DNA from: Perna viridis
Lineage: Eukaryota
Assembly: GCA_037379345.1 (NCBI GenBank)
Contig: CM074513.1
Coordinates: 25,730,001-25,794,000, forward strand
Direction of reading: 5' to 3'
DNA: 64,000 nucleotides
The position numbers were made by a program. Position 1 is the stretch's first letter. Every line of letters starts with the position of its first letter. This document shows, piece by piece, positions 1-60,000 of this stretch.

Positions 1-3000
1 GGATGGAATGATGGACAGACAGGGTGATTCCAATATACCAACCACTCTTTCAGTATGGGTGTAATTAAATAACTCATTCTGGAACTTTTTTAGAAATTGA
101 CTCAACCATTCTGGCCATTCTGATTGGAACCCCACAAAAAAATCACTAGCTTTGCAGTAAAAAGAAATGTACTAATGTCTTCTACTCACCAATAACAAAA
201 CCCACAGCTATCAGGATTTCCCTGGAAGCAAGAAGTATATGCCAATTCTCCAAAACCATGTCACCATATCTGCCATCCCCATTAGGATTTCCTACAAACA
301 GATCACAGTCTTTGGGATTGGGTACATCTCTCCAAAGATAGTCTGTCGATGCTACAGCTCTCTTGAAATCAACATAAACATTGACACCAAACTGGATACT
401 CCATGACATCATAATATCATAGTAACGATTGGTTTCCAGGTCTGTGACATAAACTGTCCACTCACGGTCTTTTGTACTGATTTTAAAATACATTCTCTCG
501 TCACGGTAGTAAATAGCATAGCCTGTTGAATCAGGATGATCACCACAGTTTGTGTAAATGTACGAGTTGTCTTTGAGTGAATTAAACTTGATTGTAAATG
601 ATATGGAGATACCAAGTGAACAGGAATCTGGATGGTAAAGACATGGGTTATCATCTTTATTCCCAACTTTCAGGTACTGATCCTGGCCATTAAACCCTAA
701 GGATAGTTTATCATTTTCGTTCTTTAATAGTTTCATCCCTCCATAAGTAGCAATAGTACCAGCTTGTACATATAATTTACTTCCTTCTATCCTTATGAAG
801 AACAATCTGTACTCATAGATTCTGTCCACTATAAAGTAAAATTACTTTTATAAGCAGTAATATACTATAATTGTGTATAGAAAGCAATATAAGTTCATTA
901 ATTGTACAAAAATGGAACCTTTCTCATGAAATATAATATAAACATCTCTTACAGTACATTTTAAACATCTTTGTAGAGCTTCACATCTTGCTTCATCAGG
1001 TTAACTTTGATGCTTTCTATCATGCCTTCAACAGGACTACCCAGCTTTTAAGATGTAAATGTGTGCGGTATGGCAAAAGTTGGAAAGATCAAAGAGAAAA
1101 ACCAATAGATCAAAAGTAAATGCAGACAAATCAGCTTCAAAGTGTGTGAATCTCAGGCAAAATGATTGAGAGTTGGCTCTTTCGCTATCATTATTCTGTA
1201 TGTATAAAATTGGACCAATCCATTACTAGTCGACCTTGTTATACTATGGAGAAACATATAGACTGATTTCATCAGTTACAATATGTACACCCAGAACAAA
1301 AGTTGTATTAAATTCAATCCAGCACTTTAAAAAAAGCGGTAAATTAATGAAAGAGATATCAACAACACAAATATGGAAACATGACAAAACCTATGCAGCT
1401 AAATACCAGACAATTAACCTTGCATGTCCCATTCAACTTCAGTGGTTAAGGATATACAATGACCACTACTTACCACTAATAACTGTCCAGTCAATCTTGG
1501 ATATTTCAGTTCTACATTCCAGTTGTGGATTTGTAGGATTAGCAAACCCATGCTGGTAGCATGTGTCATCAATAATACAAATGTCATCCTAAAAGAAATA
1601 CCAGAAACATATCAAGAGTGTGTATAAACCTATAAACTGTTTCCATAGAGTAGTCTGACTGATTTATTAAATGTATTTATTTAGAGAAATTTTGCAAAAA
1701 TAAATATACATGAGTTTAAATTTAAGTATAAATAAATACAGAGCATACTGGGGCAAAAAACTTGCAAATGATGCCTGTCCTATGACATGCCATTTCTATA
1801 ATATTGAGTTAATAGAATAATCTATAGTAAATTTATCTTTACCATGCATTTTACAAATCCTGAGTCCATTCTATAAAACAGAAAGATAAACCCAGGTTGG
1901 TTAGGCTTAACATGTATCTTGAAAAATAATATTTGTCCACGGGTATTGATAATACATACCCTTTTAGAACATCCGTCTGTGATATTAACATCACAAGTAT
2001 CACAGTAACCATTATATACTAAATATGGTAACCAATCACCATAGTCTATACCATTGTTGCTAACGGTAACATTATAGATGGCAATCTTTGGCAGTAGACA
2101 AGAAACACTGTCAATATCTATATATTCAGCTTTGACTGTTCCTATCTCCCCAGTGGTTGTAAGATTTTGCTGGAAAATAAAATTGAACAAATAAATATGA
2201 TGAATAGCCTTGACAGAGAACATGATATGCAAAATGTGTCCTTAGCTGCCAATCCATAGCTCTGAAGGTTGTTTTATTTACATTTGGAAAGATAAACCTT
2301 CAGAGCTACATATTCCTGGCTAGATTAATATTATTCTTGTCTATATCTCAAACAAAAATAGGAAACCAAAAAAGAAAACATTCAATTATTAAGAAATATC
2401 ATACAGAACACTACTGTAATACCTTAAACATGATAAGAAAATAGGGAAAGACAGACAAATAGGCAGGCAGATAGATATACCATAATATCTCTGCAAAATT
2501 ACAGGTGTAATCAAATTGAAAATTCTCTGTGAAACTTTATTCCAGAATAGGAATTGAAAGTTGAAAAACACCATTTTTGTAAAAGTGAAAACAAATGTAT
2601 GAATTACGACCAACTATGGGAAAATCATCCATGGACAAGGAATCCTAGCCAGGAAGACAAAAGACAATAGACAAAGAAAGATTTACACACCTTAAAAGAA
2701 CTAAAAAATACACTGTACATACAAAACATCTCTAAAAACCTTGATAACTCAGGTACTCCAGAAGAGTAAAAGACATCCTAAATCTGAGCAACATTAAACT
2801 CAAAATTTTACCTGCATTTTATAGTCTAAGTTAAGAGGTCCTAGTTGAGAAAACACCAATATGCCTCAGACAGTCCTGAGGCTAAACAGAGCAGACATTT
2901 ATAGGTAGAAAATTGTGGACTGTTTATACAAACAGCTATTTAACTTACATATAAGACTTCATAATGACAAGTCAAATTATCTGTATCTGCAAAGTTTTCT

Positions 3001-57000: not shown

Positions 57001-60000
57001 AAAGTTCTAGAAGATTAGATTTCTTTTTTTCTTTTCATCATCACTGTTTAAAACATAACTGACAATTCAATTTGGAATTTAAAGTTGTGGTTCAATCTGC
57101 CCCGGAAAATCAAGAAATTATTGTGACCGTATTAATTTTGAAGGTTGCTAATTTTCACAGATTCTGTCAAGTGAACATATTTGTTATCAATTTTGGCAGT
57201 TTAAAAAAATGATAAGTGTTATATAAAGTGATTAAACAATCAATTTGTGAGTACTATCTTTCACGCTTTCTCTCCACTGTGAAAACAGTAAAAACTGGTA
57301 TATCATGAAAATTGATACAGTCACAGTAAGTGTCCAACCTAAACAATACTTTCACCACTATCCATTGAATTCTTTTATCAATATGGTACATTGAATCAAC
57401 AACTTAACCTTAGAAATGGAGTTTTACATTGGTATTACTGTCTACATGCATATTGATAACCCAGTGCTCAATTTACCTGTATCATTTTTAGTGATATTGT
57501 TAGTAAAATATTCCCCTGTAACATCATTAAAACATGAGTAATACTAGTTCATAAAGTATTGTATAATAATGGCACAATGAAATAATTATTGACCCTTTGA
57601 GAGCTTATATCTTTAATTACCATCCATCCACACCCCCAAAGGAGGGCATCCTCTTGCCTATATTGTGGTGCAGTTATAATTAGGTTAAAACGGAAAAAGT
57701 TTGTGTAAATATTGGTTTCCGACAACTTAAACATGCATATGCACAAATACAGGAGATGGGAAATGATGGTCTGTCTAAAAAAATAATTACTATAAAAATT
57801 TGTGTTATTAAATATATGTCTAAAAGGATGGGCATTTTCTTAAATAAAATAATATCAACAAAAGATATTGTTTTATTTATAACAGAAAAGTTATAAAACT
57901 ACAGTATTAAACATAATTATCACTATCTATAAAAACACATACCTTCTACACATGTATAATAATGATACTCCCAGTCTCTATAGTAACCAAATGACCCTGA
58001 ACTTTGATCTACTTTCTTCAGGTTGCCATCTGCTAGTATACAGATACCAGACTTGGAGTCAAACTTGACAGCCTTACACCCAGGGATTGGTTCACAAAGC
58101 TGTTTACATCGACTCAAAGTCCAGACATTCTCTTCCATTTTAAGGTGTGTGTCATTTGAGAAGTAGCCACTGAATTGGGCCATTTTTGTCCATTCAACAT
58201 TCTTTCCAGGACAGGCAGCTATAGTGAAAGTCATAACTTTAAACTTTACACACATATTAGCAATACCTTCTTTGAAGATTTGAATCCAATACAAGAAATA
58301 TTGTCTGTTTCAAATTAAAACTTAAAATGAGGCTGCTATGATGAAATGATGACCAAAAGTGACCATTCTAAGTCAAATCAATATTATAAATTTATTGTCA
58401 TTATATCTTTAAACTCTCCATGACATCAGAAACCCATTAACTTATAAAGAAACACAAAATAATTCATTACCATTATCGCAATTCCATTCTGCATATGTCC
58501 AGTTAGAGTGAACTGTTTGATTAGCTATGTAGGATCCAGCATCTGCTGAGCTATATGTAGACATGAAGCAACTACCCATACCACTGTCATAATCAAAAGA
58601 AGAGCAAACAAACTCAGATTCAACCTCACACGCTTTCTCACAGTCTTCTATTGATGTTTCTGATGTTTCCTTGGAATCATGGAACAGTAGGGCACTAGAG
58701 AGATCCCTGCTCCAGACAATGTTAGAGTCAGGGTAACATTGATCTGAAATGGAGATAGTATAACAGAAAACCTAGCATTTGTTTAAAGGAAATGAATCAA
58801 AACCATACAAAACAGTTCCAAATAAGGCCCTTTGCATTTACCGAGAAGCTCTTGTTTTTGGAGGAAATTAATTGGTTACATGCAATATGAGGGATATTGT
58901 CCCTCAAGAAGACGAAAACAAATTTAGTGATTTTTCAATTTTTTAGAAATTGAGCACTTAATTTCAACCAAAAACATATTAGTTCAGCAGCTACTGTGAA
59001 AGGCTCTATTATACATTATTGTTCAATCTTGATAAAGTTCTGACTATGAAAATACAAAATCATTTTGCAAAACATTGAGTATTAATATAAAGTTTTATAC
59101 AACTTTTGCATTTTAGAGTAATTCTAGTAATTTTACACAGTTTTACAAATACTGTTGAGGGGGACTGGAATTTGATAAATTTCCTTATTACAACCCTGAT
59201 CTTGATATGGCACTACCTTTGTCAACAAGCGCACTCCATTCAGTAGTATTAGGTGCTAAACAGCCTTGTTGATGGTTCGTAGGGTTACGATCTCCTTCAT
59301 GAAAACATTTTCCGTCAATGTAACAGACACCATCCTAAAAAGATTGAAAATAATATCAGTGGAAATAAAGATGATAACAAAGCTTTTTTTTCTGAACTTT
59401 GGATTACATTTTGTATTGTCATTTGTTTTAATTTTTACTGAAACCAATTTTCCCTTCATAATATAACAGACAGATCAAGTCTTATCAATGATTCTACATG
59501 GTAGTTTATGCAAGTCACTTTGAGAAATCCATTTTTAAAATATGGTTTTTAATTTAACTTTCCAGTTTTGTAGCTAAGCTGCCATGTTCTCACAGTGCTG
59601 AATTAATTAGCAAATTAAATACCATTCTAATTATAACACCTACTAAAGGACTAAGTACTTTTCATATTAATTTCAAAACTTATATACAATTAGGTATATA
59701 TGTTTAATAATTACTTTTAATTTACAGAAAACTGGGTCAGTAGAACAGTTGTAACATTCTGGGTTGTAAGAGATGGTGACCATTGGATTAGCAACAACCT
59801 CTGTTGTGTTTACATTGCTGACTGTCACTTCGTAGCGCCCTCTAGTGGGCAATGTACATGTAACATGGCCACTGCTGATGAACATGACATTTGCTTCCAT
59901 CCAATTGGAAGTAGACCAATAACCTGTTTCATTTATCTATTGGAGGAATTTAAAAAAAAATACAATTACAAATTCAGAAGAAACAAATTCAGGCATATTT

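What the first reader, a model, noticed from the sequence alone, without database searches (positions are those of the whole stretch)
190..58743. One swappable slot between modules holds different binding domains: PAN-PAN, PAN-PAN, empty, LamG, LamG, LamG
Seen: the slot after each CxIDGxCY exon is a phase-1 junction filled by symmetric 1-1 exons. These are 273+276 nt (PAN), 267+264 nt (PAN), nothing recognisable between 34787 and 32309, then 639 nt, a 639-nt equivalent and 639 nt (LamG). Each super-module is itself phase 1-1. Known: PAN and LamG domains mediate protein and glycan binding, and class 1-1 modules drive exon shuffling. Inference: a scaffold-plus-interchangeable-adaptor design with a PAN zone and a LamG zone. 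Any accessory exon or whole module could be skipped in frame, allowing combinatorial isoforms.
Basis: partly seen in the sequence, partly recalled or inferred. Interest (0 to 1): 0.7.

Follow-up and report, generated by a model that had tools for sequence, protein, structure and literature searches.

The report
Giant mollusc VWDE-like gene, variable heads
The window holds the middle of one very large mollusc-type gene built from repeated von Willebrand D/EGF units, each starting with its own binding "head" (two PAN domains, nothing, or a lectin-like jelly roll), an orderly and anciently conserved layout rather than a freely swapping cassette.

Summary
On the minus strand, six copies of a 115-118 nt exon coding C-x-I-[DG]-x-x-C-[YF] each end at a phase-1 junction. 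The next exons are 273+276 nt, 267+264 nt, none, 639 nt, a 639-nt equivalent and 639 nt, all phase 1-1 with AG/GT. All 4 PAN exons pass Pfam's PAN_1 cut-off. The "LamG" exons fail Pfam's cut-off. Relatives, a confident model and fold matches place them in the concanavalin-A-like Laminin_G_3/pentraxin superfamily.

The slot is the N-terminal head position of a repeated VWDE-like unit. Its contents are fixed by position. Pecten maximus has PAN-PAN, PAN-PAN, none in the same order, and window units A and E group with position-matched units of other molluscs. So this is an old, conserved architecture made by unit duplication and exon shuffling.

In unit E the head is fused to both neighbouring exons (975 = 115+639+221 nt), so it cannot be skipped alone. 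A second 1-1 insertion, a 414-nt Methyltransf_FA exon, sits at another phase-1 junction in the "empty" unit. Isoforms were not testable. The window is not human.

The parts
59217..59334 (-). Unit A exon d (CYIDGKCF), 118 nt, phase 0-1. Its donor opens the slot.
   Evidence: AG/GT borders, no stop, similar to the other five d exons.
58471..58743 (-). Unit A head, PAN exon 1, 273 nt, phase 1-1.
   Evidence: PAN_1 37.4 bits (cut-off 21.4). AG/GT borders.
57943..58218 (-). Unit A head, PAN exon 2, 276 nt, phase 1-1.
   Evidence: PAN_1 32.8 bits. AG/GT borders. The acceptor is weak (score -2.0).
55673..55917 (-). Unit A exon e (Ig_VWDE-like), 245 nt, phase 1-0.
   Evidence: Ig_VWDE E 0.0063, below the cut-off; borders chosen to match the paralogues.
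44738..44852 (-). Unit B exon d (CLIDNVCY), 115 nt, phase 0-1.
43304..43570 (-). Unit B head, PAN exon 1, 267 nt, phase 1-1.
   Evidence: PAN_1 31.0 bits..
42492..42755 (-). Unit B head, PAN exon 2, 264 nt, phase 1-1.
   Evidence: PAN_1 39.5 bits..
42096..42340 (-). Unit B exon e (Ig_VWDE-like), 245 nt, phase 1-0.
   Evidence: Ig_VWDE 27.8 bits, E 2.5e-6 (cut-off 28.1)..
36118..36531 (-). Extra 414-nt phase 1-1 exon between exons a (37261-37105) and b (35881-35691). It codes a Methyltransf_FA-type domain and marks a second insertion site at another phase-1 junction.
   Evidence: PF12248 46.6 and 47.4 bits (cut-off 24.2). AG/GT borders, donor score 6.2. No paralogue in the window.
34787..34901 (-). 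Unit C exon d (CFIDWKCY), 115 nt, phase 0-1.
   Evidence: donor score 6.4.
32310..34786 (-). Empty slot: a 2477-nt intron with no PAN or LamG-type remnant. It holds tandem copies of the 3' end of exon d with its donor, and repeat-like DNA.
   Evidence: HMM searches with controls..
32083..32309 (-). Unit C exon e (Ig_VWDE-like), 227 nt, phase 1-0. An alternative acceptor lies at 32282, also phase 1.
   Evidence: Ig_VWDE E 0.0097..
22804..22918 (-). Unit D exon d (CIIDGVCY), 115 nt, phase 0-1.
21880..22518 (-). Unit D head, concanavalin-A-like (Laminin_G_3-type) exon, 639 nt, phase 1-1.
   Evidence: 234 relatives; model with pLDDT 96.7; lectin-like jelly-roll matches. No direct Pfam hit.
21205..21425 (-). 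Unit D exon e (Ig_VWDE-like), 221 nt, phase 1-0.
   Evidence: Ig_VWDE E 0.0035..
11435..12409 (-). Unit E: exon d (CRIGGLCY), the head and exon e fused in one 975-nt exon of phase 0-0. Both slot introns have been lost. The head part is about 12294-11656.
   Evidence: 975 = 115+639+221. Laminin_G_3 E 4.2e-4, 20.9 bits, below the cut-off; 44% identity to the unit D head; this ORF is in the protein library as P0007.
1474..1588 (-). Unit F exon d (CIIDDTCY), 115 nt, phase 0-1.
   Evidence: donor score 5.9.
190..828 (-). Unit F head, concanavalin-A-like exon, 639 nt, phase 1-1. The gene runs on past the window start.
   Evidence: AG/GT borders; 29% identity to the D and E heads, E 1e-23 to 1e-27.
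62411..63592 (-). Tail exons (classes k, l, m) of a further unit upstream. The gene also runs off this end of the window.

Best explanation
The window is the middle of one giant gene for a multi-unit, VWDE-like extracellular protein of a mollusc. Its closest relatives are bivalve proteins.

Each unit of about 10-12 kb codes a fixed backbone: an Ig_VWDE-like domain, a beta-rich domain 'g', a VWD domain, a cysteine-rich stretch, one EGF, a beta-rich domain 'c' and the small C-x-I-D motif domain 'd'. The 'slot' is the junction between d of one unit and the Ig of the next. It is therefore the N-terminal head position of each unit. All introns at that junction are phase 1, so whole domains sit there as 1-1 exons.

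The array arose by tandem duplication of the unit. Heads were then gained, kept or lost by exon shuffling: two PAN/apple domains in units A and B, none in C, and a lectin-like jelly roll in D, E and F.

Shown here:
- the exon anatomy;
- the domain identities;
- that at least units A and E are position-for-position orthologues of units in other mollusc classes.

Inferred:
- the layout predates the split of bivalves and gastropods and is kept by selection;
- the heads give each unit its own glycan or protein ligand;
- the protein is a single-pass membrane or secreted adhesion or recognition molecule;
- splicing is mostly constitutive.
For: One gene, not several:
- d, the head and e share one open 975-nt exon in unit E.
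- The d-to-head introns are only 285-1167 nt (2477 nt in C).

VWDE kinship:
- Ig_VWDE matches all 4 of the separate e exons. The best is 27.8 bits, E 2.5e-6.
- Window exons h to l align to the regions that Pfam calls VWD in relatives. In P0003, VWD scores E 1.5e-35 with its best stretch at 1923-2082, against h/ij/kl at 1912-2100.
- Named vertebrate VWDE proteins match Tegillarca P0155 at E 6.5e-26 to 3.7e-32. They carry exon classes ij, kl, o, b and d in the same order; 3 of the 5 also match class a, and 1 class c.

Heads:
- PAN_1 passes the cut-off in 4 of 4 exons.
- The LamG-type head found 234 relatives at E<=1e-3.
- 19 of 60 aligned family members match Laminin_G_3.
- Above-cut-off Laminin_G_3 hits lie over the aligned stretch in P0005, P0008 and P0014.
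- The family profile hits pentraxin PTX3 at E 9e-4.
- The model has pLDDT 96.7 and is a beta sandwich.
- Foldseek gives probability 1.0 and TM 0.55-0.67 to lectin-like jelly rolls.
- 27 of 30 Atlas neighbours are Laminin_G_3 clusters.

Conservation by position:
- Pecten maximus reads PAN-PAN, PAN-PAN, none.
- Elysia chlorotica reads PAN-PAN, PAN-PAN, none, none, and a fifth unit with no head match.
- Biomphalaria glabrata reads none, none, then four LamG-type heads.
- Tegillarca reads a weak discoidin match, PAN-PAN, PAN.
- Best-hit votes: A to Pecten u1 13 of 14, B to Pecten u2 9 of 12, A to Tegillarca u2 13 of 15, A to Elysia u1 11 of 13.
- Tree of exon g, 41 rows x 220 columns: A with Tegillarca u2 97/90, then Elysia u1 95/94; E with Biomphalaria u4 and Aplysia u1 95/88.

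Membrane anchor: all 11 of 11 relatives whose model ends after a last d have a 19-residue stretch with mean Kyte-Doolittle score 2.65-3.83, starting 19-43 residues after d.
Against: - Positional orthology is clear only for units A and E.
- B and C are unresolved in the tree, and its bootstrap had not converged (correlation 0.949).
- Votes are split for C (Pecten u3 3 of 10, u1 6 of 10), for D (Biomphalaria u3 6 and u4 6 of 14) and for E (u4 5 of 12).
- The relatives are gene predictions. Several are partial or probably split, so 'none' in a relative could be a missed exon.
- The number of empty units differs: 1 in the window, 2 in the Biomphalaria model, and up to 3 in Elysia. So some turnover does occur.
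- The VWD call for the window is indirect. Single exons gave no Pfam VWD hit, and the joined model was not searched.
- The membrane anchor and the function are not in the window.
- Nothing here bears on splicing.
- The relatives found with the LamG-type query carry that domain by construction. The ancestral head type is therefore open.
Confidence: 0.72

Rival explanations
1. The protein is a scaffold with interchangeable adaptors, and in-frame skipping of head exons or whole units produces combinatorial isoforms in the animal.
For: - All 7 accessory exons (4 PAN, 2 LamG-type, 1 FA) are phase 1-1, so skipping each keeps the frame.
- Some acceptors are weak: scores -2.0 at 58218, -3.0 at 43570 and -1.5 at 22518. 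Weak acceptors are common at cassette exons (general knowledge).
- Two relatives are named 'isoform X2' by NCBI.
Against: - Symmetry is what exon shuffling leaves behind, and it says nothing about use.
- In unit E the head is welded to its neighbours in one exon.
- Head content is conserved by position across mollusc classes.
- No transcript evidence was available.
Confidence: 0.15
2. The window holds a tandem array of separate single-unit VWDE-like genes, each with its own head, wrongly read as one gene.
For: - Single-unit relatives exist that start with heads and end with d plus a membrane-spanning segment.
- The long relatives are only predictions.
Against: - d of unit D's tail and the head of unit E lie in one uninterrupted exon.
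- Each of the 5 d exons that is followed by an intron ends at a GT donor in phase 1, matching the next acceptor.
- The gaps are 285-2477 nt. No class of signal-peptide or membrane-segment exon recurs between units in the all-against-all comparison.
Confidence: 0.04
3. Some accessory exons are decaying or not used. The FA exon or the weak-acceptor PAN exon would then be a pseudo-exon, and the empty slot a recent loss.
For: - The FA exon has no counterpart at the matching a|b junction of Pecten or Elysia. There the gap leaves no room for about 138 residues.
- The empty-slot intron shows local rearrangement: tandem copies of the exon-d end.
Against: - All these exons are open. P is about 1e-5 for 137 codons.
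- They score above Pfam cut-offs.
- They have AG/GT borders. The FA donor scores 6.2.
- The empty state is shared with Pecten unit 3 and with Elysia and Biomphalaria units, so it is old.
Confidence: 0.07

Closest known systems
[quoted passage not shown]
   Same: It has the same backbone order: Ig_VWDE, VWD, then the classes o, b and d, with a in 3 of 5 and c in 1 of 5. The relative Tegillarca P0155 matches named amphibian and alligator VWDE at E 6.5e-26 to 3.7e-32.
   Different: Vertebrate VWDE has one unit followed by a long EGF array (P0168). No PAN or LamG-type match was seen in 0 of 5 vertebrate proteins. The window gene has at least 7 units with one EGF each and unit-specific heads. [quoted passage not shown]
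Uncharacterised multi-unit VWFD proteins of molluscs (Pecten maximus LOC117339037, Tegillarca granosa KUTeg_004694, Elysia chlorotica EGW08_011566, Biomphalaria glabrata A0A2C9L6R6, Aplysia LOC106014199 and LOC101855535, Argonauta hians Ahia01_001047900)
   Same: They have the same units, the same head position and the same order of head types. These are the likely orthologues.
   Different: Identity is only about 25-57% per exon (71% for one 24-residue exon), so they come from another lineage. None shows the FA insertion: 0 of 11 and 0 of 13. The number of empty units differs.
Class 1-1 module shuffling in extracellular mosaic proteins (Patthy's rule; recalled, no paper on it was read here)
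   Same: Whole domains are carried on symmetric phase 1-1 exons inserted into phase-1 introns. This holds for 7 of 7 accessory exons.
   Different: None in principle. This gene is a clean example with two separate insertion sites.
Proteins with repeated VWD units such as FCGBP, zonadhesin and gel-forming mucins (recalled)
   Same: They have tandem repeats of a VWD-containing unit in a very large extracellular protein.
   Different: Those units are VWD-C8-TIL. Here no C8 or TIL family was reported by Pfam in 8 of 8 relatives scanned. The units instead carry Ig_VWDE, EGF and variable heads.
Tandem apple (PAN) domains of plasma prekallikrein and factor XI (recalled)
   Same: PAN_1 domains come in tandem, with six aligned cysteines in 4 of 4 exons.
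   Different: Here they form a pair used as the head of a VWD unit, and there is no protease domain.

Membership tests
PAN/apple domain (Pfam PAN_1, PF00024) | Profile score above the curated cut-off | tested here: met
   4 of 4 exons passed: 37.4, 32.8, 31.0 and 39.5 bits against 21.4.
PAN/apple domain (Pfam PAN_1, PF00024) | Conserved cysteine framework | tested here: met
   Six cysteines align in all four exons (alignment). Their pairing into disulfides is recalled knowledge and was not tested.
Laminin_G_3 / concanavalin-A-like lectin superfamily (PF13385, clan) | Profile score above the curated cut-off on the window's own exons | tested here: not met
   0 of 3 passed. The unit E part scored 20.9 bits, E 4.2e-4, against a cut-off of 27.6. 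Units D and F gave no hit. The 363-aa ORF of unit E also gave none at E<=0.1.
Laminin_G_3 / concanavalin-A-like lectin superfamily (PF13385, clan) | Clear homologues are members | tested here: met
   19 of 60 aligned family members match PF13385 at E<=0.01, the best at 3.6e-12. P0005, P0008 and P0014 match above the cut-off over the stretch that aligns to the query.
Laminin_G_3 / concanavalin-A-like lectin superfamily (PF13385, clan) | Beta-sandwich jelly-roll fold | tested here: met
   The model has pLDDT 96.7 and pTM 0.92. Foldseek found at least 500 PDB matches at E<=0.001. The top ones are lectin-like jelly-roll subdomains, with TM (query) 0.55-0.67. The profile hits pentraxin PTX3 at E 9e-4.
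Classical laminin G (Laminin_G_1/2, as in laminin, agrin, neurexin) | Profile match to PF00054 or PF02210 | tested here: not met
   There was no match on the window exons. Only 2 of 60 family members match Laminin_G_2.
VWDE family | VWD domain | tested here: inconclusive
   Single exons h to l gave no Pfam VWD hit. They do align to the VWD regions of relatives. The joined model was not searched, by rule.
VWDE family | Ig_VWDE domain before the VWD | tested here: inconclusive
   4 of 4 separate e exons match, all below the 28.1-bit cut-off. The best is 27.8 bits, E 2.5e-6. Relatives pass: Elysia 35.9 bits, Pecten 33.4 bits.
VWDE family | Sequence kinship with named VWDE | tested here: met
   One search gives E 6.5e-26 to 3.7e-32 through Tegillarca P0155. 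In one search, window exon classes ij, kl, o, b and d match 5 of 5 vertebrate VWDE proteins in the same order; class a matches 3 of 5 and class c 1 of 5.
VWDE family | Single unit with a long C-terminal EGF array | tested here: not met
   The window has at least 7 units, each with one EGF exon.
Class 1-1 shuffled module | The domain is bounded by phase-1 introns on both sides, and exon borders coincide with domain borders | tested here: met
   7 of 7 accessory exons are phase 1-1. The Pfam PAN match spans profile positions 3-76 within exons of 87-91 residues.
Methyltransf_FA domain (PF12248) | Profile score above the curated cut-off | tested here: met
   47.4 bits against 24.2, covering profile positions 13-136 of 140.
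Alternatively spliced cassette system | Transcripts with and without the exons | not testable with these tools

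The most novel reading that the evidence does not exclude
The gene codes a giant cell-surface recognition molecule whose ordered row of heads acts as a conserved 'reading frame' of binding specificities. The likely order from the outer N-terminal end towards the membrane is discoidin, PAN pairs, bare units, then lectin-like jelly rolls. Regulated skipping of 1-1 head exons or of whole units would tune which specificities are displayed. 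That would give molluscs a splice-based repertoire of adhesion or immune receptors.
Probability: 0.1. Interest if true: 0.7.

Novelty: new variant of a known kind. Interest (0 to 1): 0.38.

Why it matters
This is a clean, checkable example of how very large extracellular proteins are assembled. A whole multi-exon unit is duplicated at a phase-1 border. Heads are then added, replaced or lost as 1-1 exons, and later intron loss freezes one head in place.

It also shows that molluscs keep a multi-unit relative of VWDE. [quoted passage not shown] The head order appears to have been kept since before bivalves and gastropods parted.

In six full-text searches I found no paper describing this architecture. 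For annotation, the finding suggests that neighbouring gene models in some genomes may be pieces of one gene. In Aplysia, the PAN-bearing and the LamG-bearing model are each listed with a longest contig of the same length.

Tried and rejected
- A search for long relatives with the 363-aa unit E ORF (lengths 'longer', 637-2000 aa) found nothing. The long relatives came from the all-library search instead.
- phmmer of the unit D head against PDB sequences gave only a chance hit at E 1.7.
As a result, 7 of the long relatives used remain unnamed.
- A first tree mixed non-overlapping window exons as separate rows. It placed them artificially together and was dropped. The tree restricted to exon g was used instead.
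- No tree was made for exon ij, and no AU test of 'PAN-linked units form one clade' was run.
- A scan of 10 unassigned ORFs of at least 80 aa on either strand gave no Pfam family at the cut-off. There was one weak Cyclin_C match at E 0.009.
- A transposon reading of the empty-slot intron rests only on weak inverted repeats (71-86% complementary) and is not claimed.
- A Pfam scan of Biomphalaria P0151 failed on the length limit and was not repeated.
- The bacterial genome collection and the phage, plasmid and E. coli collections were not used, because they cannot hold this gene.
- No supplementary files were read. The orthology tables of PMC7390686 and PMC9117669 might list invertebrate VWDE relatives.
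- The organism was not identified beyond 'mollusc-like, nearest to bivalve proteins'.

Full report
**What is there**

The window (64 kb, no N, GC about 0.32, CpG observed/expected 0.23) is filled by one gene on the minus strand, and that gene runs off both ends. I compared all 674 minus-strand stop-to-stop ORFs of at least 25 aa with each other. This gave about 16 recurring exon classes, which I call a to o. They repeat in the same order six times (units A to F, from high to low coordinates), and the tail of a further unit lies at 62411-63592.

A simple splice-site scoring, with the condition that phases match between neighbours, gave a provisional exon chain. The borders around the slot were then checked one by one. 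The backbone phases are the same in every unit:

| Exon class | a | b | c | d | e | f | g | h | i | j | k | l | m | n | o |
|---|---|---|---|---|---|---|---|---|---|---|---|---|---|---|---|
| Phase | 0-1 | 1-0 | 0-0 | 0-1 | 1-0 | 0-0 | 0-0 | 0-2 | 2-0 | 0-0 | 0-1 | 1-2 | 2-1 | 1-0 | 0-0 |

Borders of exons away from the slot are provisional. Several choices are probably too long or too short, for example Bc, Cj, Dm and Fc. A few exons (h and i of unit C, n of unit B) were not found.

**The slot**

Exon d is 115 nt (118 nt in unit A) and codes C-x-I-[DG]-x-x-C-[YF]. It ends in phase 1, and exon e begins in phase 1.

| Unit | Exons between d and e | Lengths (nt) |
|---|---|---|
| A | 58743-58471, 58218-57943 | 273, 276 |
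| B | 43570-43304, 42755-42492 | 267, 264 |
| C | none (2477-nt intron) | - |
| D | 22518-21880 | 639 |
| E | equivalent stretch, no introns | 639 |
| F | 828-190 | 639 |

All of these exons have AG/GT borders, no stop codon and phase 1-1.

With a stop probability of 0.0785 per codon on this strand, open frames of 88 to 325 codons have P from about 7e-4 down to about 3e-12.

In unit E, d, the head and e form one exon of 975 nt (12409-11435). That is exactly 115+639+221, the sum of the three exons of unit D. Two introns were therefore lost without any change in length.

**Domain names**

All four PAN exons pass Pfam's PAN_1 cut-off, and six cysteines align in all four.

The 'LamG' exons do not pass any Pfam cut-off. 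The unit E part scores 20.9 bits for Laminin_G_3 (E 4.2e-4, cut-off 27.6), and units D and F give nothing. The indirect evidence is strong, however:
- phmmer of the unit D exon against 1.84 billion representatives found 234 proteins at E<=1e-3, 71 at E<=1e-10 and 8 at E<=1e-30.
- I aligned the D and F exons with 58 of the 150 listed hits, choosing the short, single-domain ones among the first 86. Of those 60 rows, 19 match Laminin_G_3, 2 match Laminin_G_2 and 1 matches Toxin_R_bind_N, another family of the same fold class.
- The profile of this alignment hits pentraxin PTX3 at E 9e-4.
- The AlphaFold model has pLDDT 96.7 and is a beta sandwich.
- Foldseek matches it, at probability 1.0 and TM 0.55-0.67, to lectin-like jelly-roll parts of solved structures. 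These are the N-terminal half of clostridial neurotoxin binding domains, the lectin domain of trans-sialidases and a carbohydrate-binding domain of an arabinanase. This is a resemblance of fold only.
- 27 of 30 Atlas neighbours are Laminin_G_3 clusters.

The head is thus a concanavalin-A-like jelly roll of the Laminin_G_3/pentraxin kind. It is not a classical laminin G domain.

**The empty slot**

I ran HMMs of the head family and of the PAN exons, with all filters off, over the six frames of 32310-34786. They gave only negative-bit matches (best full-sequence E 1.6 and 0.68). Two control introns gave the same. The true heads scored 243.6, 121.8 and 113.0 bits.

What the intron does hold is about six tandem copies, of period about 80 nt, of the last 60-70 nt of exon d together with its GGTAAGT donor (34254-34830). 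Reading through the first donor meets a stop after three codons.

**A second insertion site**

In the same unit C, a 414-nt phase 1-1 exon (36531-36118) lies between exon a (phase 0-1) and the EGF exon b (phase 1-0). It scores 47.4 bits for Methyltransf_FA, against a cut-off of 24.2. No other unit in the window has it. None of the 24 long relatives mapped has it. One unnamed 643-aa protein carries it beside a head-type domain (P0133).

The 'empty' unit is therefore not bare, and the gene has used two of its four phase-1 junctions for domain insertion.

**What the gene is**

Single backbone exons are mostly silent in Pfam. The exceptions are weak EGF-type hits on all 5 class-b exons scanned and Ig_VWDE on all 4 separate e exons (best 27.8 bits against a cut-off of 28.1). 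By rule I searched the spliced model exon by exon only.

Relatives supply the missing link. P0003 (Argonauta hians, 3038 aa) and others carry the window's exon classes in the same order. Pfam calls VWD exactly where classes h to l align.

Named relatives are all 'uncharacterized', 'hypothetical' or 'VWFD domain-containing' proteins:
- Molluscs: Argonauta, Octopus, Biomphalaria, Aplysia, Elysia, Candidula, Physella, Haliotis, Gigantopelta, Tegillarca, Pecten, Ylistrum.
- Nemerteans: Lineus, Tubulanus.

Named vertebrate VWDE proteins match Tegillarca P0155 at E 6.5e-26 to 3.7e-32. They carry classes ij, kl, o, b and d in order (a in 3 of 5), with Ig_VWDE at 132 bits in P0168.

By summed best bit scores, the window is nearest to the two bivalve proteins and to Biomphalaria glabrata: Pecten 2854, Tegillarca 2849, Biomphalaria 2813. 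Exon identities are only about 25-57% (71% for one 24-residue exon). I therefore do not name the organism. It is not human.

**One gene or many**

Single-unit relatives begin with heads and end with d. In all 11 of 11 relatives whose model ends after a last d, a strongly hydrophobic 19-mer follows 19-43 residues later. This points to type I membrane proteins, with d next to the membrane.

In the window, the units are joined. The fused exon of unit E puts d of the preceding unit and the next head in one reading frame. The d-to-head introns are short, and no signal-peptide or membrane-segment exon class recurs between units.

**Is the slot 'swappable'?**

Maps of relatives, made with the window's exon peptides as separate phmmer queries, show the same head position. 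Pfam scans of 3 of these relatives (Elysia, Tegillarca, Pecten) confirm their PAN, VWD and Ig_VWDE matches. The order of contents is strikingly similar:

| Relative | Head contents, unit by unit |
|---|---|
| Pecten maximus P0160 | PAN-PAN, PAN-PAN, none (model ends) |
| Elysia chlorotica P0153 (partial) | PAN-PAN, PAN-PAN, none, none, and a fifth unit with no head match |
| Tegillarca P0155 | weak discoidin match, PAN-PAN, PAN |
| Biomphalaria pfeifferi P0162 | discoidin, PAN-PAN |
| Aplysia P0164 | discoidin (below cut-off), PAN-PAN |
| Biomphalaria glabrata P0151 | none, none, LamG-type x4 |
| Aplysia P0152 | LamG-type x4, then a membrane segment |
| Argonauta P0003 | LamG-type x3 |
| Candidula P0154 | LamG-type x3 |

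Best-hit votes, exon by exon:

| Window unit | Reference unit | Exons agreeing |
|---|---|---|
| A | Pecten unit 1 | 13 of 14 |
| B | Pecten unit 2 | 9 of 12 |
| C (exons e, f, g) | Pecten unit 3 | 3 of 10; the other 7 go to units 1 or 2, because the Pecten model ends early |
| A | Tegillarca unit 2 | 13 of 15 |
| A | Elysia unit 1 | 11 of 13 |
| D | Biomphalaria first / second LamG units | 6 and 6 of 14 |
| E | Biomphalaria second LamG unit | 5 of 12 |

A maximum-likelihood tree was built on exon g. It had 41 rows x 220 columns, with window units A, B, C and E.
- A groups with Tegillarca unit 2 (97/90), then with Elysia unit 1 (95/94).
- E groups with Biomphalaria unit 4 plus Aplysia unit 1 (95/88).
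- B, C and all deep branches are unresolved, and the bootstrap had not converged.
- Many gastropod units pair across species with 95-100 support.

The array and at least part of its head pattern are therefore older than the species compared. Heads are fixed by position, with some turnover in the number of bare units.

**How it most likely works**

Shown: the anatomy, the head identities and positional conservation for units A and E.

Inferred:
- The product is a very long extracellular protein, probably anchored by one membrane segment beyond the window.
- Each VWD unit presents its own head: PAN pairs towards the N-terminal side, lectin-like jelly rolls towards the membrane, and bare units between them.
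- PAN and concanavalin-A-like domains are known binders of proteins and glycans (general knowledge). The heads would then set what each unit binds, while the VWD/EGF backbone spaces them and may mediate self-association.
- The VWD start motif D-P-H-x-x-T-F-D is present in exon h of units A, D and E. In some VWD proteins a G-D-P-H site undergoes self-cleavage (recalled). Whether that applies here is unknown.

Skipping of 1-1 exons would keep the frame, but symmetry is the footprint of shuffling and not evidence of use. Unit E shows that at least one head is hard-wired.

**Novelty and score**

Phase 1-1 shuffling is textbook, and the relatives are already in databases as unnamed predictions. The multi-unit VWDE-like architecture with position-specific heads, the conserved PAN-to-bare-to-lectin order, the exact double intron loss and the FA insertion are not described in any paper that my searches reached. 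Those searches covered six term sets. I read passages of PMC7390686 and PMC9117669. Other papers were seen as listings only, and no supplements were read.

I rate the finding a new variant of a known kind, with moderate interest.

Noticed in passing
window 34254-34830 (minus strand): The last 60-70 nt of unit C's exon d, together with its GGTAAGT donor, are repeated about six times in tandem (period about 80 nt, 90-96% matches). The copies lie just inside the empty-slot intron and form a row of decoy donor sites. Reading through the first donor meets a stop after three codons.
   Followed up: partly
window 36118-36531 (minus strand): A 414-nt phase 1-1 exon codes a Methyltransf_FA-type domain (47.4 bits). 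It lies between exons a and b of unit C only, and is absent from the 24 long relatives mapped.
   Followed up: yes
window 11435-12409; also 39394-39614 and 53138-53414: Introns have been lost without any length change. The unit E exon of 975 nt equals 115+639+221. Unit B has k and l fused (221 = 112+109 nt). Unit A has i and j fused (277 nt). Conversely, exon g is split in two in unit D (20032-19827 and 19428-19236).
   Followed up: partly
window 5889-6067, 15251-15327, 7601-7834 (minus strand): Lysine/arginine-rich runs (for example KRKKKYKKKK, KNKKGKRR, KNKKKKKFKK) lie inside exons m and j of units D and E only. They might be low-complexity inserts or dibasic processing sites.
   Followed up: no
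window 46840-46957 (minus strand): A 39-nt tandem repeat (3 copies, 98% matches) is in frame with, and just upstream of, exon c of unit B, and reads SIIESKQHCSLKR x3. Whether it is coding or intronic is not settled. My provisional exon border includes it and may be wrong.
   Followed up: no
window 5325-5598, 32432-32810, 50771-50893: A shared interspersed repeat occurs in three introns (56-77% identity at peptide level in the ORF comparison). Weak inverted repeats (71-86% complementary) lie in the empty-slot intron around 32308-34018.
   Followed up: partly
window 53662-53738, 18689-18765, 9178-9254, 40810-40886 (minus strand): Exon h carries the VWD start motif [IH]-N-D-P-H-x-x-T-F-D in units A, D and E, but N-L-G-H in unit B. 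The D-P bond is the self-cleavage site in some VWD proteins (recalled).
   Followed up: no
relatives P0152 and P0164 (Aplysia californica); P0151 and P0162 (Biomphalaria): The PAN-bearing model and the LamG-bearing model of Aplysia are each listed with a longest contig of the same length (4,987,337). In Biomphalaria the two halves come from two species' partial models. These may be one gene split by annotation.
   Followed up: no
relatives, C-terminal tails: All 11 of 11 relatives whose model ends after a last exon-d motif have a membrane-segment-like 19-mer starting 19-43 residues later. The family therefore looks like type I membrane proteins with d next to the membrane.
   Followed up: partly
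whole window: CpG is strongly depleted (observed/expected 0.23) at GC 0.32, as expected for a heavily methylated gene body.
   Followed up: no
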